From Corynebacterium glutamicum ATCC 13032 (GTDB lineage Bacteria; Actinomycetota; Actinomycetes; Mycobacteriales; Mycobacteriaceae): a stretch of DNA of 32,000 bases. The DNA lies in the NCBI RefSeq assembly GCF_000011325.1, contig NC_003450.3:1080001-1112000 (forward strand), in the 5' to 3' direction. The notes below the pieces were generated by a model. The model ran no database searches and was not told the DNA's origin. It was given only the letters and a program-made list of their open reading frames with translations. Shown piece after piece: positions 4,380 through 16,340 of the stretch. Made by a program: the position numbers and the translations under genes. Position 1 is the first letter of the stretch. Every line of letters begins with the position of its first letter.

Positions 4380-5465
4380 GTGACCCTTACTCTTGGAATC
4401 GTCGGCCTGCCCAACGTTGGCAAGTCCACCCTGTTCAACGCCCTGACTCGCAATGACGTGCTCGCAGCGAACTACCCGTTCGCCACCATCGAGCCAAACG
4501 TGGGCCTTGTCGAGCTTCCAGACGCTCGCCTTGAACGCCTTTCTGAAATCTTCGGCTCTGAGCGCATCCTGCCAGCAACCGTGTCTTTCGTTGACATCGC
4601 CGGAATCGTTAAGGGAGCTTCCGAAGGCGAAGGAATGGGCAACGCTTTCCTTGCCAACATCCGCGAAGCAGACGCTATCTGTCAGGTTGTGCGCGCATTC
4701 GCTGACGAAAACGTCATTCACGTCGATGGTGAAGTTAACCCAGCAACCGATATCTCTGTGATCAACACCGAGCTGATCCTCGCCGACCTGCAGACCGTGG
4801 AAAAAGCACTCCCACGCCTCGAAAAGGATGCACGCAAAGACAAGGGACTTGGCGAAGTCGTAGATGAGACCAAAAAAGCCCTTGCGATCTTGAGCGATGA
4901 CCGCACCTTGTTCTCTGCAGCAAAAGCTGGCGACATTGATCTGGCCCTCCTGCGCGATCTCCACCTGATGACAGCAAAGCCTTTCCTCTACGTCTTCAAC
5001 TCCGACGAAAAAGTGCTCACCGACGACGCCAAGAAGGACGAACTCCGCGCACTAGTCGCGCCAGCAGACTGCGTATTCCTTGACGCACAAACTGAAACCG
5101 AACTTCTTGAACTCGAAGAAGACGAAGCAGCAGAACTCCTCGAAGCTGTAGGCCAAACGGAACCAGGCCTACACTCCCTCGCACGTGCAGGATTTGAAAC
5201 CCTCGGACTACAGACCTACCTCACCGCGGGTCCTAAGGAATCACGCGCCTGGACCATCCACAAGGGCGACACCGCTCCACAGGCAGCAGGCGTTATCCAT
5301 TCTGACTTCGAACGCGGCTTCATCAAGGCTGAAATCGTCTCCTTCGAAGATCTTGACGCTGCTGGTTCCATGGCGGAAGCCAAGGCCCAGGGCAAAGTCC
5401 GCCAAGAAGGTAAGGACTACGTGATGGTCGATGGCGACGTTGTGGAGTTCCGGTTTAACGTCTAG
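4380..5465 (+). CDS. ychF: Redox-regulated ribosome-binding ATPase YchF (Obg-like)
   Basis: TLTLGIVGLPNVGKSTLFNAL P-loop, and a C-terminal TGS-like end ...DGDVVEFRFNV. The likely start is GTG 4380 (or GTG 4374); the ORF-track TTG 4362 adds residues not typical of YchF. Confidence 0.95.
   Translation: MTLTLGIVGLPNVGKSTLFNALTRNDVLAANYPFATIEPNVGLVELPDARLERLSEIFGSERILPATVSFVDIAGIVKGASEGEGMGNAFLANIREADAICQVVRAFADENVIHVDGEVNPATDISVINTELILADLQTVEKALPRLEKDARKDKGLGEVVDETKKALAILSDDRTLFSAAKAGDIDLALLRDLHLMTAKPFLYVFNSDEKVLTDDAKKDELRALVAPADCVFLDAQTETELLELEEDEAAELLEAVGQTEPGLHSLARAGFETLGLQTYLTAGPKESRAWTIHKGDTAPQAAGVIHSDFERGFIKAEIVSFEDLDAAGSMAEAKAQGKVRQEGKDYVMVDGDVVEFRFNV
5442..5465 (+). repeat. Direct repeat copy A (authentic ychF 3' end, GTGGAGTTCCGGTTTAACGTCTAG)
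   Basis: Encodes VEFRFNV plus the stop codon. The same 24-mer recurs at 6943-6966 and, diverged, at 7620-7643. Confidence 0.9.
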
Positions 5466-6920: not shown

Positions 6921-6942
6921 CGGTTTTCGGTGTCGGAACTCG

Positions 6943-6966
6943 GTGGAGTTTCGGTTTAACGTCTAG
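6943..6966 (+). repeat. Direct repeat copy B of the ychF 3' end (23/24 identical)
   Basis: GTGGAGTTTCGGTTTAACGTCTAG, preceded by CGGAACTCG, which also precedes copy C. A weaker partial echo (GTTCCGGTTCAACC) follows at about 6971-6984. Confidence 0.85.
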
Positions 6967-7040: not shown

Positions 7041-7544
7041 CTACTCAAACGTCATCCCGAGAACCGTCCGGACGGGAATGTTTCCGCCATGGTCGTCTGC
7101 CAGTCGATGCATACCGAGCTTTCGGGCGACGCGTTCCGAAGCTTCGTTCTCGGGGTGGATGATGGCGACCAACTCGGGTGAGCCTACAACGTCGCGTGCG
7201 TAGTCGCGGCATGCAATGGCGGCTTCGGTCGCGTAACCGAGGCCCTGCCTTGCGGTGACGACGTGGTAGCCGACCTCGAGCTTGGGTGCGCCATTCACCT
7301 CTTGCCACGTGAGGCCGCAGTCGCCAACGAACTCGCCGTGGATCGTCTCGACGATCCATAGGCCGTAGCCGTGCTCCGCGTAGTTCTCTTCATTCCAAGT
7401 GATCCACCTGGCTGCCTGCTCGCGTGTTTTCGCGGAGGGGTAGAAACGCATCACTTCAGGATCCCCGAGCATGTCGGCCATGAGATCGATGTCAGCAGGC
7501 CGCTTGCGGCGGAAGCGGCGGCGTTGGGTATTTGGCGGAGTCAC
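7041..7544 (-). CDS. GNAT family N-acetyltransferase (RimJ/RimL-like)
   Basis: 167 aa. LGDPEVMRFYP...GLWIVE...GEFVGDCGL...VGYHVVTARQGLGYATEAA...HPENEASERVARKLGM is the typical Acetyltransf_3-type motif order. Confidence 0.85.
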   Translation of the reverse strand: MTPPNTQRRRFRRKRPADIDLMADMLGDPEVMRFYPSAKTREQAARWITWNEENYAEHGYGLWIVETIHGEFVGDCGLTWQEVNGAPKLEVGYHVVTARQGLGYATEAAIACRDYARDVVGSPELVAIIHPENEASERVARKLGMHRLADDHGGNIPVRTVLGMTFE

Positions 7545-7619
7545 TGGTTCAGCGTAGTTGCGGGGAGGCCTCGGTCCAAAAGTTGGCTGAGGTTAGAGGT
7601 TGGTATCCGCCGGAACTCG

Positions 7620-7643
7620 GTGGAGTTCAAGTTCAACGTGTGA
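7620..7643 (+). repeat. Direct repeat copy C, a diverged ychF 3' end
   Basis: GTGGAGTTCAAGTTCAACGTGTGA reads VEFKFNV plus a stop, the same peptide tail as ychF with one substitution and silent changes. It is preceded by CGGAACTCG, as copy B is. Confidence 0.75.
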
Positions 7644-7660
7644 CGGGCGCAGAAGAGTGG

Positions 7661-8316
7661 TCAGTCGCGGGGGACGCCAGTCGCTCGAGTGATCACTGGG
7701 TCGAACTGGCGATCGGTGAGGATGTTGCGCGAGGCAATCAGCGGTTTGGCACCGAAGCCGATGGCATAGCGGGTCTTGGGGTGACGTGCCGTCACGGCCT
7801 TTCCAATCGCATCGGCGACAACCGACGGTGGTGAGTTGCGGTTGCTGTTCGCCTCAGATCGCAACGACTTCGATACTGCGTCAGCCTGGCGCTTGTATGC
7901 GCTGTCTTTCGACACTGCGTCGAGATTGTCGGCAGCGATTCCTCCCCACTCGGTGGCGATGCCGCCCGGTTCGATGACAACAACGTCGATGCCGAATGGG
8001 GCGACCTCCAGGCGGAGGGCGTCCGAGAGGGCCTCGAGGGCGAACTTGGTGCCGTGATACCAGCCGCCGAGAGGCGTGTAGATCTTCCCGCCCATCGATG
8101 TGATGTTCACGATCGTCCCCCACTTTTGTTTCTGCATGTGGGGCAGGACGAGTCGGGTGAGGGCCATCGCGCCGAATACATTGACCTCGAACTGGCGACG
8201 GCCTTCATCGATTGTCATCGGTGACGTCCATCTCGAGGGGGTGGATCCCGTCTGAAGCGAGCTTTTGGGGGCGCTCTGTCCTGCGGGCAGCACCGTAGAC
8301 GGTGAAGCCGAGTGAT
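7661..8316 (-). pseudogene. Short-chain dehydrogenase/reductase (classical SDR), decayed
   Basis: The C-terminal two thirds are intact (RRQFEVNVFG...NITSMGG...YHGTKFALEAL...VVVIEPGGI). An upstream piece, SLGFTVYGAARR...LEMDVTDDN, lies in another frame with about 35 codons missing between them. The TGxxxGIG N-terminus is cut off at 8316 by the ISL3 repeat. Confidence 0.8.
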
Positions 8317-8358
8317 GGCTCTTCCGGTTTTAGAGTGCACTCTAAAACCGGAAGAGCC
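8317..8358. repeat. Perfect 42-bp palindrome made of two ISL3-type terminal inverted repeats with no body between them
   Basis: GGCTCTTCCGGTTTTAGAGTGCACTCTAAAACCGGAAGAGCC. Its first 22 nt are identical to the terminal repeat of the ISL3 remnant at 15371-15392. The flanking 8-mers differ (CGAGTGAT versus ACTAAAAC), so there is no target duplication. Confidence 0.8.
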
Positions 8359-8361
8359 ACT

Positions 8362-9940
8362 AAAACCCCTGTGTCCACTTTCCGGGGGGTGTTCCTATAT
8401 AGGTTGTCAACTCCGTGGGTGAGGTTGCTGGGGGTGTGAAGGGGTTCTGCTTCACGCTGCGGATGTTGTTTTCGGGCATGCTGAAGAGCCGATTGGGCTT
8501 CCTGCACAATCGGCTTCGGGGCTTGTAGGGGCTAGGCCGCTGCGGCCTCCTGGGCTGTGGGGATGTCTCTGTAGAGCTCTCCGCTGCGCATCATGGCGAA
8601 GAGGACGTTGAGGCGTCGGCGTGCGAGCGCGACGACTGCGGCGTTGTGTCTTTTGCCTTCGTTGCGTTTTCGTTCATAGAATTGCCGGGAACGCTCGTGG
8701 AATCTGATCGATGCAAAAGACGACTGCCATAGGGCGTTCTTCAATTTCTTGTTGCCGGCCCGGTTGGGCGAATTCGACATGATCGACGTTCCCGACTGAT
8801 TTGTCTGCGGCGACAGGCCTGCATAGGACGCCAGGTGCGCTGCATCGGGAAAGTCGGACATATCGCCGACGGTCATAAGGATTTGCGCGGCGCTACGTGG
8901 GCCGATGCCGGGCATGGACAAGAGAATCTCGGTCTGAGGAATGTCCTGGATCAGCTCGAGTACCTGGCCTTCAATCTCTTTGCGGTGCTCCAGCTTGGCT
9001 AGTGCATCTTTGGCGGACATTGCTACGCCAAGTTCCGCGTATTCTGCGCCGGCGATGGATACCGTCTGGCCGTGGATCGCAGCAAGCATGGCATCGATAA
9101 CTGGCTCAGGATTACGTGCCCTGTGACCACGTGCGAAAGCTGCCAGCCGTGCTTTGCCGACGCGTCGAATCTTGGTGGGGCCACCGTATTTCGCCAGAAG
9201 GTGGAGAATCCACTTGCGGTGAATCATCTGCCCACGCAGGACATGTTCGAATGCGGGGTAGGTGCCCACGAGCGCGGATTGCATCTGGTTGATCAGGCGT
9301 GTGTAGGCGCGGGCGAGGTCTTCGTCGATACCGTTGAGGACTTTCAGCTGGAGGAAGACTTCCTCAACGCGGTCGACGCTACGCAGGGCATCCGGAAGGT
9401 TGAGGCCGGCATGGGCGATGACATAAGCGTCCCGTACATCGGTCTTGGAGTTGCCGACGTGGATACGTGAAAGTTGTCGCATGGCAAGCCCGGGGAGGTA
9501 GCGAACGTCGGCTCCCATTGCTTGGGCGACTGCGACGGTTAGCCTGCCGATGTTGTTGGGCTGATCGACGACGACAAGGACCTCGGCGTCATTGGCCAGG
9601 AATTTGTCGAAGAGCTTGCGTAGCGAGCCTTCGTGTTGGTTGATGCGTTTGGATAGGACTTGTCTGCCCTGGGGATCGAGGACGCAGGCGTGGTGGAAGT
9701 ATTTGCCGACGTCCATTCCAATGACGAAGTCATAGGCCATGAGTCTGTGCCTCCTAGCGATGAGTAGGGAGTTGGATTATTTACGCTTCATCGCTGGGGT
9801 GGTCGGACATACTTGTGCTGGCATCCACATTACTGTGAGACCTCGTGCCTCCTGGGCCGGGTCAGGTTCCTATTAGCAGTTTGAGTATGTCACTGTCTTC
9901 GGCGGCATCACCCCCCGGATCATTTTCAGACAGGGACAGG
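8362..9940 (-). mobile_element. IS110-family insertion sequence; ends approximate
   Basis: One DEDD-type transposase gene. It is bracketed by an 11-bp perfect inverted repeat, TCCGGGGGGTG 8381-8391 versus CACCCCCCGGA 9909-9919. The repeat extends imperfectly outward (CCCTGTGT 8367-8374 versus the reverse complement of 9927-9934, CCCTGTCT). The size, about 1.58 kb, is typical for the family. Confidence 0.75.
8532..9740 (-). CDS. IS110 family transposase/recombinase (DEDD RuvC-like N-domain plus C-terminal transposase_20 domain)
   Basis: 402 aa. MAYDFVIGMDVGKYFHHACVLD...VVVDQPNNIG...KTDVRDAYVIA...MPGIGPRSAAQIL...LASYAGLSPQTNQSGTS...GNKKLKNALW are hallmark IS110 motifs. Confidence 0.95.
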   Translation of the reverse strand: MAYDFVIGMDVGKYFHHACVLDPQGRQVLSKRINQHEGSLRKLFDKFLANDAEVLVVVDQPNNIGRLTVAVAQAMGADVRYLPGLAMRQLSRIHVGNSKTDVRDAYVIAHAGLNLPDALRSVDRVEEVFLQLKVLNGIDEDLARAYTRLINQMQSALVGTYPAFEHVLRGQMIHRKWILHLLAKYGGPTKIRRVGKARLAAFARGHRARNPEPVIDAMLAAIHGQTVSIAGAEYAELGVAMSAKDALAKLEHRKEIEGQVLELIQDIPQTEILLSMPGIGPRSAAQILMTVGDMSDFPDAAHLASYAGLSPQTNQSGTSIMSNSPNRAGNKKLKNALWQSSFASIRFHERSRQFYERKRNEGKRHNAAVVALARRRLNVLFAMMRSGELYRDIPTAQEAAAA

Positions 9941-10162
9941 AATAAACCATACCGAAGCCAGCGACTAGTTCCACTGTCCTTTCGGACGGCGGGAACGGAC
10001 ATAAACATAGTCCGCCCTCTCGGGTGGACGGACTATGAATCTTCGGTGCCCTGGGGTGGAACTGCTAACAACGTAATGGGCAGGCCCAAAAGAATACTTT
10101 AAAAGGATAAGATTTATATGACAGCCTGATTCACATTGTAAAAGCCCTATTCTCCGTGAAGG

Positions 10163-13100
10163 ATGACGATTGCTGTGAATACGACCAGTCGTTGGCTACT
10201 TGCCAATTCCAGTGACCCCTTGTTGTATCGAGACAGTTCACTGCTGGTTGCTTTGTTGCGTCAGATTGTCTTTGCGTTCGCGTATTTGATTGCTGTAATT
10301 GGCTCATACTCACTGGTATACGGCGATTCGTTAGTCGCAATTGTGTGGCCATCAGTGGGAATCGCTGTGTGGTGGGCCGTGACCTGCAGAAGCTGGAAAA
10401 ACTTCGCCCTGATTTGTGGATACGTGTTTCTAGTCCCAGCCATATACCTGCACTTTTTTGCGGAAACCTCCCTCAGGGGAGTGATTCTGGCAGGAATTGC
10501 GCACGCTATCGCAGGTCCTGGCGTTGCACTGGTTATGGCATTCATGGAAAATGCGCAATTGCCAGAACTGTTGCGTAAACGGCATGCATTCGCACCCTTC
10601 TCCCATATTCGCCTTCCAGGCGATGTATTCCGGCTCCTCGTCGCGGGCATTGTCATGGTCGCAATATCCAAATTGATTGTGATTCTTGCTTATGCACTGG
10701 CAGATTTGCCGTATTCATTCACCCTTTATCTGACGATGGCCCTTCGTGACTTGACTGGCATTATTGTGGTTGCCGGGCCCGGAATTGCACTTTCGACGCC
10801 GCTGGTACTAAATATTCACCGATCAGCATGGCGCGAGTTCGCAGTTGTTATCATAGCTACGGTCGGAGTGCTGGCGCTCATTTTCGGATTTGCTGTGGAT
10901 CTTCCGACGGTCTACTTGGCAATGTTGCCATTGTATTGGAGTGCAACCCGTCTTCCAGTGCTTTTAGCCGTTCTTCATGCGGTGTTTACTTCAGCAATAG
11001 TCGTAATTCTGTATTTCCTATTAGGTACCGGATCTTTTGCGATTACGGATGAATCCATACTGGTGCAGGCAACGACAATTCAGCTTTTTGTTCTGATGTG
11101 TATCTTGTTGTCGCTAGTTGTGTCAACGACAGTCCAGCAGACATCAGCACTGGTTGAAGAGCTAGAGGTGGTAGCGAAGACCCTTCCTGATGCGCTTTTT
11201 ATCGTAAACAAAAATGGAACAGCATTTCCTGTTAACGCAGGCGCGAAAAATTTCGTCAAGCAATCACCGGATGGGCATTATTCCATGCCGAAACTACAGA
11301 ATATAGACGGTGAACCCATGGATGAGAAAGAAAGTCCGAGCAGTATGGCCTTGCGTGGACAAGGTGTCGAAGGAGTATTAGCCAAGTTAGGTGAAGTACT
11401 GGGAGAAGATCCGGACTTGGCGCGTCGAATCTTCGAAATTAGTGCCTCACCGATGTATCTGCGTGGAGAAACTGAACCGGGTCATGCGCTCGTGATTTGG
11501 CATGACAGTACTAATGAGTATTACACGATGCAACAATTGACGCTTGCATATGAAGAATCGCGGCTGCTATTTGAAAAAGCCCCTCAAGGGATTGCCATGC
11601 TGGACCCTTCGGGAGAAATCGTAATGGCGAATCGATCCTTTGGTGACTTGGTGGGAACGACTCCTGTTCGACTCCTAGGACGAAATCTAGAGGATTTCGG
11701 AGTAGAGGAGGGAACCATGGAATACGTGACCCCTGTTCTGTCGGACCCAGAAGCCGTTGTGCACTTAGATCGTTCGCTCGAAACATTGAGAGGTAAACAG
11801 AAAAACGTTGCTATGTCATTTAGCTCGATGGGCAATGTTGGAGGCAGAATCGGAACTTTACTCGTTAATGTTGTCGATGTAACCGAGCGCCAAGAACTCA
11901 TCGAGCTTGTGGAGCATTTGGCGGATCATGACTCCCTGACAGGATTGGTCAATCGCAGGCGGCTGGAATCTGATATCGAAGAGCTTATCCTCAAGAATGA
12001 ACGCGATTCGACCGATAGTGCATTGTTGCTTTTGGATCTGGATTACTTCAAGGAAGTTAATGATTCCCTCGGCCATGAGGCTGGTGACCAGTTGCTTATT
12101 GAGTTTGCTGAGATCCTCAAAGACAGCGTGAGGGATTCCGACATTGTCGGACGCATCGGCGGCGATGAATTCGTTATTGTTTTGCCTGACACAGACAGGG
12201 ATGGCGCTGAAGCAATCGGTATAAGAATTATTGAGTTGGTCAATCAGCACTTCAAAGGCCGAGGAAAAGTGTTATCGCGGGTGTCAGTAAGTATCGGCGG
12301 GACGCTCTTTTCTGATGCTCGTGCCCAAGGTGTGAATCCATTCATTCTTGCTGATCAGCTGCTTTACGATGCTAAGCACGCAGGTAGAAATCGGGTTGCG
12401 GTGCGCAGAGCTGAAAACACCATTGTCCGCTCAGCTAAGCCCGCATTCTCAGTTGAGGAACTTTCGGAGATCCTGGAGTCACATTCTATTCGCCTCGAGC
12501 TGCAGCCGATCCTAGAACTTGAAACAGGTCGGGTGGGTGCAGCCGAAGGTCTGCTCCGAATCAACTTGGATGGCACCGATGTTCCTACGGGGCAGTTTGT
12601 TCAGTCGGTTGAACAGGCCGGGCTAGCCCCGAAGCTTGATATCGCAGTCATGAGAGAAGGAATTAATCATATTGAGAGGCTGAGAGCTGTGTGTCCGACT
12701 TTCAGCCTCGCTTTGAATCTGTCGGGCTATTCTCTGAGCTCGGCGAAAATACGGGAGGAACTAAGAGCCGAATTTAGAGCTCGCGATCTGCCAAGGGGAT
12801 CAATTAGGTTTGAGATTACTGAGACCGCTCCGATTGAAGACATTGACGCGGCAAAAGAGTTTGTGCAGATGTTGAAAGATTTTGGCTTCCACATCGTAAT
12901 CGATGACTTTGGCGCAGGACATGAGCCTTATCAATATCTAAAGAAGTTCGACTTTAGCGTGCTGAAGATTGCAGGTGAATTCATAGAAGGTATGGTCACC
13001 AACCGCGTGGACCGAAGCATCGTCGAATCTATTGCTCAACTTGCTAAGGATGAGGAGATGGAAACTGTCGCCGAGTTTGTTTCAAGCAAGGAGATTTTGG

Positions 13101-15370: not shown

Positions 15371-16340
15371 GGCTCTTCCGGTTTTAGAGTGCGTTGATTT
15401 TGTGGGTGAGTTGTCCGGAGTGGATGAGACAGTGCAGGATGTAGTGGTTGAGGTTGCGAAATCCTAGGGCGATTCCGCGGAGGTGTTCGAGTCGTCCGTT
15501 GATTGCTTCTACGGGTCCGTTAGAGATTCCGACATCGAAATACGCCAGGATGTCACCGAGGCGTTTGTGTAGGCTGCGGCCTAGTTGTGCAAGTTCTCGA
15601 TTCGCTTGTCCTTTCAGTAGCCGCATCTGGTCAACAATCTCGCGCATCATGGTCTTTGCGCGGCGTTTATCGGCCATGTTGTATCAGTCAATAATGCCTT
15701 GATACGCCTGCCACATCAGTTGCAGTGCCGCGTAGTCTTTATCAAAGCTAAACAACTCATCAAGACGCTTTGCTTTTTCTTACTCAACCATTTTTGCGTG
15801 GTCAGCAAGGTTTTCCGGTTCTTATACAACGGGTCATCATGCAAACCCCGCCGGTGGTATTTTTCCTGCTGCAAACGTTGTCGGCATCGGGTGAGTTTAT
15901 CGCCGGCGAGGAGTACCACGTGGAAAGGATCCATGACTCGGCGTGCGGCGGGCAGAAGTTGTTTGCTGGTTGTGGCATAGCCTTGGAATCCATCCATAGT
16001 TACAATGCGTACTTGGTGTCGAAATGCTGGGCTTCGGCGTGCAAGCCACGCCCGCAACGCATCAGCACTGCGGCCTTCGACTACATCAAGCAACCTCGCT
16101 GGGGACGTGGCATCGCGGTGGAAGGCTGGTCATATTAACAATGACGGTGACATAGCCATCACCATGTTTTAATCGGTTATGAGATCATTTGTGCTCATCG
16201 ACGCCAATAACGTGCACAATTTCTAGGTGGGTGGGGTCGTAGTAGATGAGTTCGTGGCACATATCTAGGGCTAGTTGGCAGGTGAGATCCCAGCCTAGAC
16301 CGAGGGCTTTCGCGGTTGCTGCGATACTCATACGGTCGAT
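15371..16340 (-). mobile_element. ISL3-family insertion sequence remnant (IS31831-like); one end intact, the other deleted
   Basis: Terminal repeat GGCTCTTCCGGTTTTAGAGTGC at 15371-15392. Transposase fragments lie on the minus strand in three frames. The N-terminal third of the transposase (about 125 aa) and the second terminal repeat are missing. Confidence 0.85.
15384..16335 (-). pseudogene. ISL3 family transposase, multiply disrupted
   Basis: Fragments: RLDIDRMSIAATAKALGLGWD...VIGVDEHKW; (frameshift near 16095) LLDVVEGRSADALRAWL...MDGFQGY...MDPFHVV; (frameshift in an A-run near 15775) ...LQLMWQAYQGIID; TGA at 15684-15686 where Trp is expected; then YNMADKRR...SNGPVEAINGRLEHLRGIALGFRNLNHYILHCLIHSGQL. 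Confidence 0.85.

What the first reader, a model, noticed from the sequence alone, without database searches (positions are those of the whole stretch)
8362..9940. IS110-family element with subterminal inverted repeats, lodged next to the ISL3 repeat, whose non-coding ends contain short matches suggestive of a guide (bridge) RNA
IS110-family recombinases are now known to be programmed by an element-encoded bridge RNA. Its loops pair with the donor ends and with the target. This RNA lies in the 5' non-coding end in the IS110 group and in the 3' end in the IS1111 group.

Here the transposase gene is flanked by about 200 nt (9741-9940) and about 170 nt (8362-8531) of non-coding, strongly structured DNA. 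I see the following in the sequence:
- An 11-bp perfect inverted repeat, 8381-8391 versus 9909-9919, extended imperfectly outward. This is IS1111-like.
- GAAGAGCC at 8483-8490 inside the 3' non-coding end, partly in the 3' arm of hairpin 8488-8514. It is identical to the tip of the ISL3 terminal repeat at 8351-8358, which lies only a few nt outside the inferred IS end.
- GTTCCTAT at both 8391-8398 and 9866-9873.
- An 8-bp long-range stem (GACATACT 9805-9812 with 9884-9891) closing a domain of about 70 nt in the 5' end.

Some relatives (the IS4321/IS5075 type) specifically target the terminal repeats of other transposons. The adjacency plus the 8-mer match raises the possibility that this element is RNA-guided to ISL3 ends.
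Basis: partly seen in the sequence, partly recalled or inferred. Interest (0 to 1): 0.65.

Follow-up and report, generated by a model that had tools for sequence, protein, structure and literature searches.

The report
ISCg9 element and its bridge RNA
This is ISCg9, a catalogued IS110-family jumping gene of Corynebacterium glutamicum, whose upstream non-coding end makes a small structured RNA built like the "bridge" guide RNAs of this family; it is an ordinary member of a known kind and is not aimed at the neighbouring ISL3 repeat.

Summary
The window is C. glutamicum ATCC 13032 and the element is ISCg9 (IS110 family, single copy).

**Ends.** Comparison with about 120 other copies puts the element at 8384-10080, not 8362-9940. 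That gives a 340-nt 5' end (LE) and a 147-nt 3' end.

- The "11-bp subterminal inverted repeat" has one arm 160 nt inside the LE. The other arm straddles the right junction (8 element bases including the core, 3 flank bases).
- It fits the 3' strand of a target-binding loop (right target guide, core, handshake guide).
- GTTCCTAT and the GACATACT stem belong to a donor-binding loop.

**RNA evidence.**
- The LE is more conserved than the coding sequence.
- It folds as a 5' hairpin plus two arms, with compensatory changes.
- A published small-RNA survey lists cgb_11785 starting at window 9996.

**ISL3 targeting is refuted.** GAAGAGCC survives in only 4 of 36 variants of the 3' end, and about 60 other insertion sites are unrelated to ISL3 ends.

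**Oddity.** Natural targets are almost unconserved beyond a CC core and a pyrimidine-rich left side.

**Verdict.** New member of a known kind; modest interest.

The parts
8384..10080 (-). ISCg9, an IS110-family insertion sequence of 1697 bp, counted with a CC core copy at each junction (10079-10080 and 8384-8385)
   Evidence: The homology breakpoints are shared by about 120 copies that have different flanks. The identity as ISCg9 comes from the CR101 deletion primer 9_d3, which matches the junction in L070.
8532..9740 (-). Transposase (cg1178), 402 aa, with a DEDD-type RuvC domain and a Tnp domain carrying the serine motif
   Evidence: PF01548 and PF02371. NF033542. PDB hits to ISCro4 (9t56) at 4e-15 and IS621 (8wt6) at 1e-13. 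Motifs found: D10, D59 (aligned with the E of ISCro4), D101, D104 and QSGTS at 315-319.
9741..10080 (-). Left end (LE), the 340-nt 5' non-coding region. LE position n corresponds to window 10081-n.
   Evidence: LE1-294 is 80-82% identical in relatives whose whole element is only 74-75% identical. The alignment is A1.
10006..10037 (-). Hairpin H1 (LE44-75). It is terminator-like, and its 3' arm overlaps the -10 box TATGTT (10004-10009).
   Evidence: Terminator-like scan hit. The hairpin is kept in most variants despite sequence differences (helix 1). A published readthrough transcript, 1091776-1091502, ends here.
9968..9996 (-). Hairpin H2 (LE85-113), the 5' stem-loop of the RNA. The transcription start of sRNA cgb_11785 is at 9996.
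   Evidence: Mentz 2013 Additional file 4 lists start 1091465 (minus strand, SigA promoter), an alternative start 59 nt downstream, and stop 1091372. The coordinate offset was verified with the cg1179 start site. The interior of the hairpin covaries.
9897..9957 (-). Putative target-binding arm (LE124-184). The stem is CUUCGGU/GCCGAAG and it encloses a 47-nt loop.
   Evidence: 99.6% of cells are paired, with one compensatory pair. Also predicted by alifold and by the minimum-free-energy fold.
9929..9940 (-). Candidate left target guide: tandem CCUGUC CCUGUC (LE141-152). The first unit is the part that varies between subfamilies.
   Evidence: It equals the window's left flank plus core, CCTG+CC (10081-10084 and 10079-10080). 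Elements with the window-type loop have CCTG at the junction in 3 of 15 sites against a 0.27% background, P=8e-6. Sites match their own element's guide better than other subfamilies' guides, permutation p=0.009.
9909..9919 (-). UCC-GG-GGGGUG (LE162-172): candidate right target guide, core-binding GG and handshake guide.
   Evidence: It is the reverse complement of the right-junction top strand CACCCC-CC-GGA at 8381-8391. GGGGGGUG is invariant or nearly so in 39 LEs. The layout matches that described for IS621.
9806..9891 (-). Putative donor-binding arm (LE190-275).
   Evidence: The basal stem is 98.7% paired. The inner hairpin has compensatory changes (4 and 10 sequences) and refolds in most of its 17 sequence variants.
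9866..9873 (-). AUAGGAAC (LE208-215), the candidate left donor guide on the 5' side of the donor-arm loop
Evidence: Both are invariant.
9825..9833 (-). GUAAUG(U)GG (LE248-256), the candidate right donor guide on the 3' side of the donor-arm loop
   Evidence: It is the reverse complement of core plus left-end start, CC-CATTAC (10073-10080), with one bulged U. It is invariant or nearly so in A1.
9791..9797 (-). CCAGCGA (LE284-290). It pairs with UCGCUGG (LE117-123, window 9958-9964) to close the two-arm junction. It can alternatively pair with CAUCGCU (9756-9762) just upstream of the ribosome-binding site.
   Evidence: 99.6% paired, with one G-C to A-U double change in L021. This is also the minimum-free-energy architecture.
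8385..8531 (-). Right end (RE), the 147-nt 3' non-coding region. It holds a conserved hairpin after the coding sequence (8488-8514), a TTGACA (8405-8410), and a conserved terminal stretch of about 40 nt ending ATAGGAACACCCC+CC.
   Evidence: Alignment of 36 distinct right ends. Folding z-score -3.05. The hairpin was predicted as the cg1178 terminator by Pfeifer-Sancar 2013.

Best explanation
The element at 8384-10080 (minus strand) is ISCg9, an IS110-group member of the IS110 family. Its DEDD/serine recombinase is most likely guided by a bridge RNA encoded in the 340-nt left end.

**Shown.**
- Family membership.
- The true ends.
- An RNA (cgb_11785) starts at window 9996 from a conserved promoter inside the left end.
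- The region folds as a 5' hairpin plus two arms, and compensatory changes maintain that fold.
- The loop strands match the element's own ends.

**Inferred mechanism, by analogy with IS621.**
- The element excises as a circle, joining ...ATAGGAACACCCC-CC-CATTACG....
- The second arm holds this donor junction. [quoted passage not shown] - The first arm holds the target. [quoted passage not shown] - After top-strand exchange, the adjoining GGGGUG pairs with the incoming right-end tail CACCCC, as a long handshake guide.
- The window copy is an on-target insertion at CCTG-CC-GGA.

The family as a whole tolerates very loose targets. The adjacent ISL3 palindrome is a neighbour, not the target.
For: **Family and identity.**
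- Pfam, NCBIfam and PDB hits.
- The window matches C. glutamicum ATCC 13032, record BX927147. The ISCg9 deletion primer matches the CR101 junction.

**Ends.**
- Set by about 120 copies with different flanks.
- A circularly permuted contig, L096, carries a right-end to left-end junction.

**RNA.**
- sRNA cgb_11785 is listed on the minus strand from 1091465 to 1091372 with a SigA promoter. That is window 9996-9903.
- The left end is more conserved than the coding sequence.
- 92.8-94.3% of cells are paired, against 32-44% in the slid controls. Seven or eight pairs carry double changes; 0-2 of 500 shuffles reach that.
- Hairpins persist with different sequences.
- The fold is a 5' stem-loop plus two arms, the architecture reported for IS110 bridge RNAs.

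**Complementarity.**
- ATAGGAAC (same sense), and GTAATG and GGGGGGTG (antisense), match the donor junction and sit on the expected sides of the two loops.

**Target.**
- Window-type elements show CCTG at the junction, P=8e-6.
- Sites match their own element's guide better than other guides, p=0.009.
Against: **Target recognition is weakly supported.**
- Across 58 left and 60 right distinct flanks the logo is nearly flat. No position exceeds 0.25 bits on the left, and nothing beyond one C appears on the right.
- The right target guide has no population support.
- The own-guide effect is small: 1.56 of 4 positions against 1.28 for other subfamilies' guides.

**Donor recognition departs from IS621.**
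- The left-donor match is 8 nt but is separated from the core by ACCC. In IS621 every guide includes the core.
- The element ends are invariant in all relatives found, so guide-donor covariation could not be tested.

**Expression and activity.**
- The catalogued sRNA stops at LE178. It covers the 5' hairpin and the first arm only, and the donor arm is not shown to be transcribed as a small RNA.
- No sigma-70-type promoter forms at the circle junction (sequence inspection).
- No Rfam model exists to score the RNA.
- No jump of ISCg9 is among those reported during construction of the IS-free strain.
- Nothing was tested biochemically.
Confidence: 0.72

Rival explanations
1. The RNA recognises mainly the donor and supplies the handshake. 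Target choice is largely not RNA-programmed. It would depend on a CC core within a pyrimidine-rich or hairpin-adjacent context, read by the protein or by DNA structure. On this view the window's CCTG...GGA match is partly luck.
For: - The target logos are flat.
- There is no right-target signal even though the UCC segment is invariant.
- Two insertions lie 9 nt apart in one polypyrimidine tract.
- Several targets lie in or beside palindromes, for example L003 with GACCTT-CC-AAGGTC.
Against: - CCTG is enriched specifically in elements whose loop reads CCUG, P=8e-6.
- Sites match their own guide better than other guides, p=0.009-0.016.
- Three sites (window, L013, L008) combine a left CCTG-like sequence with GGA on the right.
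Confidence: 0.2
2. The conserved left-end structure is only a 5' leader that regulates transposase expression, through an insulating terminator and a hairpin that occludes the ribosome-binding site. The matches to the ends are coincidental.
For: - H1 is terminator-like, and an incoming transcript ends there.
- AGCGAUG/CAUCGCU pairs just upstream of the AGGAGG ribosome-binding site (helix 6).
- Each individual match is only moderately unlikely: for the longest same-sense match, 45 of 500 shuffles reach 8 nt.
Against: - The matches fall on the correct strands and the correct sides of two separate internal loops, and they are invariant across 39 left ends.
- The family is known to be RNA-guided.
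- A discrete small RNA starts 256 nt upstream of the ATG.
Confidence: 0.06
3. One reading: an IS1111-like element with 11-bp subterminal inverted repeats and a guide in the 3' end, RNA-directed to ISL3 terminal repeats in the way IS4321 and IS5075 target Tn21 ends.
For: - The element lies 25 nt from an ISL3 inverted-repeat palindrome.
- GAAGAGCC is shared between the 3' end and the tip of the ISL3 repeat.
- The 3' end is structured, with z = -3.05.
Against: - With the true ends there is no subterminal repeat: 5 bp is the best, equal to the shuffle median. IS1111 repeats are 11-13 bp, with 7-bp and 3-bp terminal extensions.
- The 5' end is longer than the 3' end.
- The 8-mer survives in 4 of 36 right ends and is expected 1.2 times per window by chance.
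- Only 1 of 121 other flanks has the 8-mer within 60 nt. The two other ISL3 repeats nearby are at 112 nt and 143 nt, in different geometry.
Confidence: 0.02

Closest known systems
IS621 and other IS110-group bridge-RNA recombinases (Durrant et al. 2024, PMC11208160; Hiraizumi et al. 2024, PMC11208158)
   Same: - DEDD RuvC domain plus serine Tnp domain.
- No terminal inverted repeats.
- The long non-coding end lies upstream of the gene.
[quoted passage not shown]
- The 3' loop strands are complementary to the top strand of core plus right half.
- A handshake segment follows the core-binding bases.
- The right donor guide pairs discontiguously, through one bulged base.
   Different: - The core is CC inside a C-run, not CT.
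- The handshake-like segment is 6 nt, against 2 nt in IS621.
- The left-donor match is 4 nt away from the core.
- The RNA promoter lies wholly inside the left end and is active in the integrated copy. It is not rebuilt across the circle junction.
- The left end is 340 nt and carries an extra upstream hairpin.
- Natural targets are nearly unconserved.
- Protein similarity to IS621 and ISCro4 is detectable only in the C-terminal domain (1e-13 to 4e-15).
IS1111 group and seekRNA elements, including IS4321/IS5075, which target Tn21 terminal repeats (Siddiquee et al. 2024, PMC11187229)
   Same: - Same transposase superfamily.
- Target choice is RNA-guided.
- A short RNA of 70-100 nt carrying the target-recognition regions is the abundant species. 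The 94-nt cgb_11785 resembles this.
   Different: - IS1111 elements have 11-13-bp subterminal inverted repeats, 7 bp and 3 bp from the tips, and keep the guide downstream of the gene. ISCg9 has neither feature.
- There is no evidence that ISCg9 targets another transposon's ends.
ISCg9 as catalogued for C. glutamicum ATCC 13032 (Linder et al. 2021, PMC8715038) and sRNA cgb_11785 (Mentz et al. 2013, PMC4046766)
   Same: This is the same physical locus. The IS was listed as an IS110-family element, and the sRNA was listed as a trans-encoded sRNA between cg1178 and cg1179.
   Different: - The held literature does not connect the two. The deletion used to make the 'IS-free' strain leaves LE1-154 in place.
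- A full-text search for 'ISCg9' returned four papers, none of whose titles concerns bridge RNA. The supplements of two bridge/seek-RNA papers do not contain the name.
Actinobacterial IS110-family elements with loose consensus targets, such as IS900 and IS901 of Mycobacterium avium (recalled from memory, not tested here)
   Same: They come from high-GC Gram-positive hosts. Their insertion sites are short, degenerate and pyrimidine-rich, rather than long unique sequences.
   Different: No sequence comparison was made. This is a lead only.

Membership tests
IS110 family (ISfinder sense) | [quoted passage not shown] | tested here: met
   PF01548 at 2.4e-41 and PF02371 at 2.9e-25. NF033542 at 205 bits against a cut-off of 140. 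Residues D10, D59, D101 and D104 and the QSGTS motif are present.
IS110 family (ISfinder sense) | No terminal inverted repeats. A short core sequence is present at both junctions. | tested here: met
   The longest inverted repeat between the first and last 60 nt is 5 bp, equal to the shuffle median. CC is at both junctions within C-runs. The core length of 1-3 nt is not resolved.
IS110 family (ISfinder sense) | A circular intermediate with abutted ends | tested here: inconclusive
   One metagenome contig (L096, 1737 bp, 49-nt terminal overlap) joins right end to left end as ATAGGAACA-C7-ATTACG. It could be a circle or a tandem copy. It comes from a relative, not from the window copy.
IS110 group (as opposed to the IS1111 group) | The longer non-coding region lies upstream of the transposase gene, and there are no long subterminal inverted repeats | tested here: met
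   The left end is 340 nt and the right end 147 nt. No subterminal repeat was found.
IS1111 group | Subterminal inverted repeats of 11-13 bp (range 7-17), placed 6-7 bp and 3 bp from the tips | tested here: not met
Its three outermost bases (GGA) are flank sequence specific to this site.
Bridge RNA (IS110-type guide RNA) | A non-coding RNA transcribed from the long non-coding end | tested here: met
   From the published sRNA-seq catalogue: cgb_11785, window 9996-9903, minus strand, SigA promoter. Only the 5' hairpin and the first arm are covered.
Bridge RNA (IS110-type guide RNA) | [quoted passage not shown] | tested here: met
   Minimum-free-energy fold and alifold. 94.3% of cells are paired, 8 pairs carry double changes, and 0 of 500 shuffles reach that. 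Hairpins persist despite sequence change.
Bridge RNA (IS110-type guide RNA) | Donor loop: the 5' strand matches left donor plus core (pairing with the bottom strand), and the 3' strand complements core plus right donor (top strand) | tested here: inconclusive
   The 3' strand GUAAUG(U)GG complements CC-CATTAC, including the core. The 5' strand AUAGGAAC equals the right end, but 4 nt from the core. The ends are invariant, so no covariation test was possible.
Bridge RNA (IS110-type guide RNA) | The target loop matches the natural insertion sites and covaries with them | tested here: inconclusive
   The window site matches: CCTG-CC on the left and GGA on the right. The CCTG enrichment in window-type elements has P=8e-6, and own-guide matching has p=0.009. 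The overall logo is nearly flat and there is no right-target signal.
Bridge RNA (IS110-type guide RNA) | The recombinase binds the RNA and needs it for recombination | not testable with these tools
   This needs biochemistry or genetics.
Transposon-end-targeting IS (IS4321/IS5075 type) | Independent copies are inserted at a fixed position in the terminal repeat of another transposon | tested here: not met
   Of 121 other flanks, 1 has the ISL3 tip 8-mer within 60 nt. ISL3 repeats lie 112 nt from L094 and 143 nt from L117, in different geometry.

The most novel reading that the evidence does not exclude
The ISCg9 clade is a naturally relaxed-specificity bridge recombinase.

- Its RNA would fix the donor firmly.
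- It would use an unusually long (6-nt) handshake guide against the element's own CACCCC tail.
- It would specify only about 4 nt of left target plus a CC core, and essentially nothing on the right.
- The element could then land at many pyrimidine-rich CC sites.

This would be a natural example of half-site or minimal-guide bridge recombination. A 2026 preprint titled 'Half-match recombination drives bridge RNA-guided excision and off-target insertion' was listed but could not be read.
Probability: 0.25. Interest if true: 0.5.

Novelty: new member of a known kind. Interest (0 to 1): 0.3.

Why it matters
- It assigns a likely function to an orphan small RNA (cgb_11785) of the industrial model organism C. 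glutamicum.
- It corrects the working boundaries of ISCg9. The published "IS-free" chassis strain CR101 still carries 154 nt of the element, including the sRNA promoter.
- It adds an actinobacterial bridge-RNA candidate whose natural targets are unusually loose. If the looseness is real, the clade would be a convenient natural system for asking how much target pairing a bridge recombinase actually needs.
- It removes an attractive but unsupported idea, that this element is RNA-guided into ISL3 ends.

Tried and rejected
- **Rfam scan of 7500-11000 at E up to 10.** Only noise; no match to any bridge-RNA or IS-related family.
- **Plasmid megablast.** No match.
- **Search for an empty site.**
  - The only C. 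glutamicum locus without the gene (L070, CP080542.1) is the engineered CR101 deletion, not a pre-insertion site.
  - Blast of all flanks against all held loci found no clean uninterrupted target. An earlier attempt timed out.
- **More distant relatives.** I wanted them to test guide-end covariation. L147-L158 (52-60% aa identity) all turned out to be one orthologous decayed locus, so their ends could not be mapped.
- **Alternative boundary model.** I considered a core of AC, with CCCATTAC and ACCCCC belonging to a conserved target. I rejected it because about 60 unrelated sites cannot all share a 14-mer, and these bases are nearly invariant.
- **Register scan of loop against left flank.** It is dominated by trivial CCC-to-CCC alignment and is uninformative. 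An earlier scoring run had a one-base register error.
- **Wobble-tolerant scoring.** No significant own-guide effect, p=0.12-0.23.
- **G-run length in the loop (5-8) against C-run length at junctions.** No correlation by eye.
- **Extra complementarities.** LE200-208 and LE107-114 complement LE13-25, but they do not covary in subfamilies where LE13-21 changes.
- **Promoter at the circle junction.** TTGACA lies 19 nt from the right-end tip, but no -10-like hexamer follows at 16-19 nt (inspection).
- **Global RNAalifold on the whole left end.** It gave a poor long-range fold, and MAFFT misaligns H1 and H2.
Full report
**What is there**

The ORF at 8532-9740 (minus strand, 402 aa) is an IS110-family transposase.
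- Pfam gives PF01548 at 2.4e-41 and PF02371 at 2.9e-25.
- NCBIfam gives NF033542, 'IS110 family RNA-guided transposase', at 205 bits against a cut-off of 140.
- The only solved relatives are the bridge recombinases ISCro4 (9t56, 4e-15) and IS621 (8wt6, 1e-13).
- The catalytic motifs are in place: D10, D59 (aligned with the glutamate of ISCro4), D101, D104 and QSGTS at 315-319.

The exact proteins of the window occur in C. glutamicum ATCC 13032, record BX927147.

One locus, L070 (CP080542.1), lacks the gene.
- Its junction reads GATGGCTCTTCCGGTTTT|CAGACAGGGACAGG.
- That is the sequence of primer 9_d3, used to delete ISCg9 when the IS-free strain CR101 was built (PMC8715038 supplement).
- The same supplement lists IS110 among the IS families of the strain.

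The element is therefore ISCg9, a catalogued IS110-family element that the deletion list names only once, with no a/b copies.

**Checking the observation**

GACATACT is one base off: 9806-9813 rather than 9805-9812.
- The 11-mer TCCGGGGGGTG occurs twice, against 0.01 expected.
- GTTCCTAT occurs twice, against 0.32 expected.
- GAAGAGCC occurs five times, against 1.2 expected. Three of the five are ISL3 repeat tips, so the other two are what chance gives.

The boundaries are wrong. I ran blastn of 8000-10300 against 66 Corynebacterium genome loci. Homology stops at window 10080 on one side and at 8384/8385 on the other, whatever the flank. Eighty metagenome loci confirmed this.
- In transposase orientation the element starts CCCATTACGTTGTTAGCAGTTCC.
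- It ends CTATATAGGAACACCCCC(C).
- The 5' non-coding end (LE) is therefore 340 nt (9741-10080). The 3' end (RE) is 147 nt (8385-8531).

I number the LE from window 10080, so LE position n is window 10081-n.

**Is it IS1111-like?**

No.
- With the true ends, the longest inverted repeat between the first and last 60 nt is 5 bp. That is the median for shuffled sequence.
- IS1111-group repeats are 11-13 bp and lie 6-7 bp and 3 bp from the tips. Their long non-coding region is downstream of the gene (PMC11187229).
The other covers the last six bases of the element proper, the CC core and three flank bases specific to this site.

**The left end encodes a transcribed, structured RNA**

Three lines of evidence support this.

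1. Conservation.
   - In relatives whose whole element is 74-75% identical, LE1-294 is 80-82% identical.
   - In the alignment of 39 distinct LEs (A1), long stretches are invariant.
2. Structure.
   - The minimum-free-energy fold of LE85-292 has four parts: a 5' hairpin (H2, LE85-113), a closing stem (LE117-123 with 284-290) and two arms (LE124-184 and LE190-275). Its z-score is -2.0.
   - On A1 this structure has 94.3% of cells paired, against 33-41% when the partners are slid.
   - Eight pairs carry changes on both sides, and 0 of 500 shuffles reach that number.
   - A variant in which LE116-122 pairs with 186-192 does almost as well. These stems are nearly invariant, so I cannot choose between the two.
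   - H1 (LE44-75), H2 and the inner hairpin of the second arm have different sequences in different subfamilies, yet in most variants still fold as hairpins.
3. Expression.
   - Additional file 4 of Mentz et al. 2013 lists the trans-encoded sRNA cgb_11785 on the minus strand. It gives start 1091465, an alternative start 59 nt downstream, a SigA promoter and stop 1091372, between cg1178 and cg1179.
   - I fixed the offset (genome = window + 1,081,469) with the published cg1179 start site and its 43-nt leader.
   - The start is then window 9996, which is LE85, the first base of H2. The alternative start is 9937 and the stop is 9903 (LE178).
   - A TAnnnT box, TATGTT at LE72-77, lies 7 nt upstream and is conserved.

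The architecture of a 5' stem-loop plus two further stem-loops with internal loops is the one described for IS110 bridge RNAs (PMC11208160).

**Do the loops match donor and target?**

I took the rules from the literature.
- The 5' strand of each loop has the sequence of the left half plus core, and so pairs with the bottom strand.
- The 3' strand is complementary to core plus right half.
- Just 3' of the core-binding bases sits a handshake guide. After strand exchange it pairs with the last bases of the other DNA's left half (PMC11208158).

In the second arm:
- The 5' loop strand carries AUAGGAAC (9866-9873).
- The 3' loop strand carries GUAAUG(U)GG (9825-9833). This is complementary to CC-CATTAC at the start of the left end.

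In the first arm:
- The 3' strand reads UCC-GG-GGGGUG (9919-9909).
- It is the complement of CACCCC-CC-GGA, which is the right-end tail, the core and the first three flank bases.
I read it as right target guide, core and a 6-nt handshake guide.
- The 5' strand carries CCUGUC twice (9940-9929). The window's left flank plus core is CCTG-CC, allowing one U-G wobble.

All these RNA segments, and both element ends, are invariant or nearly so. Because the ends never vary, guide-donor covariation could not be tested. The left-donor match lies 4 nt from the core, unlike IS621, where every guide includes the core.

**Targets**

This is the weak point.
- I collected 58 distinct left flanks and 60 distinct right flanks.
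- The logo is almost flat. There is a pyrimidine-rich left side (no position above 0.25 bits) and a C that extends the right-end C-run in 41 of 60 sites.
- A circularly permuted metagenome contig, L096, has a 49-nt terminal overlap and a 1688-bp unit. It joins right end to left end as ATAGGAACA-C7-ATTACG.
- With the usual 3 C at the left junction and 6 C at the right, this implies a core of about CC.
- I could not find an uninterrupted target to settle the core length.

Some RNA-target link does exist.
- Elements whose loop reads ...UUCCUGUC have CCTG at the junction in 3 of 15 sites, against a 0.27% background (P=8e-6). Other subfamilies have it in 1 of 40.
- Over all sites, the four bases 5' of the core match the element's own variable loop segment better than other subfamilies' segments: 1.56 against 1.28, permutation p=0.009.
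- No such signal exists on the right side.

The window copy is one of a minority of well-matched sites. The family either tolerates minimal pairing, or I have mis-assigned part of the target loop.

**The ISL3 idea**

The 42-bp perfect palindrome at 8317-8358 consists of two ISL3-type inverted repeats fused back to back. A third copy at 15371-15392 starts a decayed ISL3 element. ISCg9 ends 25 nt from the palindrome.
- The shared 8-mer (GGCTCTTC in transposase sense) lies beside the hairpin that follows the coding sequence. It is kept in only 4 of 36 distinct right ends; elsewhere it reads GGCTCCTC, GGCTAGCA and so on.
- Among 121 other flanks, one has the 8-mer within 60 nt.
- Full ISL3 repeats occur near two other copies. 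One is 112 nt beyond the right end (L094). The other copy sits 143 nt inside an ISL3 element (L117).
- This is the clustering of insertion sequences, not targeting.

The hairpin itself (8488-8514) is conserved with covariation. It was predicted as the cg1178 terminator by Pfeifer-Sancar et al..

**Comparison with what is known**

The element meets the tested family criteria for IS110 and for the IS110 group, and fails the IS1111 criterion. As a bridge-RNA system it meets the transcript and architecture criteria. The guide-pairing criteria are only partly met, and function is untested.

It differs from IS621 in these respects:
- a CC core inside a C-run;
- a handshake-like segment of 6 nt rather than 2;
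- a left-donor match offset from the core;
- a promoter wholly inside the left end and active in the integrated copy, with no sigma-70-type -10 at the circle junction despite a TTGACA at 8405-8410;
- an extra terminator-like hairpin (H1) upstream, where a published incoming transcript ends;
- loose natural targets.

A full-text search for 'ISCg9' returned four papers, none of whose titles concerns bridge RNA. The supplements of the two founding papers do not contain the name. The link between cgb_11785 and ISCg9 therefore appears to be unrecorded in the library I could search.

**Verdict**

This is a known insertion sequence of a known RNA-guided family, with a plausible and expressed bridge RNA. 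I rate it a new member of a known kind, with interest 0.3.

The one feature worth a specialist's attention is the near absence of target conservation. I give 0.25 probability to the reading that this reflects genuinely minimal target guiding.

Noticed in passing
window 8317-8358 and 15371-15392: A perfect 42-bp palindrome made of two ISL3 (ISCg1-type) terminal repeats fused back to back, with nothing between them. A third identical repeat starts a decayed ISL3 element that carries PF01610 fragments.
   Followed up: partly
window 7661-8293 (minus strand): The short-chain dehydrogenase gene appears to lack its N-terminal region (judged by eye from the translation). It breaks off at the ISL3 palindrome. 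The region looks like a scar of an older rearrangement.
   Followed up: no
window 5433-5461, 6934-6962, 7611-7639: A 29-nt repeat (76-86% identical) of the 3' end of the ychF-like GTPase gene (...VEFRFNV stop). It brackets a HigB/HigA plus carbamoyltransferase-like block and an acetyltransferase gene. It looks like att-type repeats left by small islands integrated at the gene's 3' end.
   Followed up: no
window 10083-10120: The published start site of cg1179 (the GGDEF-EAL gene) is at 10120. Its -35 (GGCCCA, 10083-10088) lies two bases outside the ISCg9 left boundary, so the insertion sits directly against that promoter.
   Followed up: partly
L070 (CP080542.1, strain CR101), equivalent to window 9927-10080: The engineered 'IS-free' strain retains LE1-154 of ISCg9. 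That stretch includes the sRNA promoter, the start site, hairpin H2 and the 5' half of the first arm.
   Followed up: yes
L096 (ODLS01000019.1), whole contig: A 1737-bp metagenome contig with a 49-nt terminal overlap. It is circularly permuted and joins right end to left end with a run of seven C. This is evidence for a circular or tandem form of a relative.
   Followed up: partly
window 9910-9915 and the same position in related loci: The G-run in the first arm's 3' loop strand varies from 5 to 8 G among copies. By eye, its length does not track the C-run length at the junctions. It could be slippage with an effect on guide register.
   Followed up: partly
L065/L066 against L088: Two insertions, one of them a truncated copy, lie 9 nt apart in the same polypyrimidine tract (CACCCTTCTCC / CCCCTCTC) of an orthologous locus.
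   Followed up: no
window 9873-9881 and 9967-9974 against 10056-10068: LE200-208 (AACUGCUAA) and LE107-114 (GUGGAACU) are complementary to LE13-25 near the left tip. This would extend RNA-donor pairing, or would sequester the donor loop in a full-length leader. It does not covary.
   Followed up: partly
L023, L024, L112, L113: Copies in which most of the left end is missing (homology begins at about LE318). An ISL3-like repeat with 5 mismatches lies about 400 nt upstream of the gene. These are probably elements disrupted by another IS.
   Followed up: no
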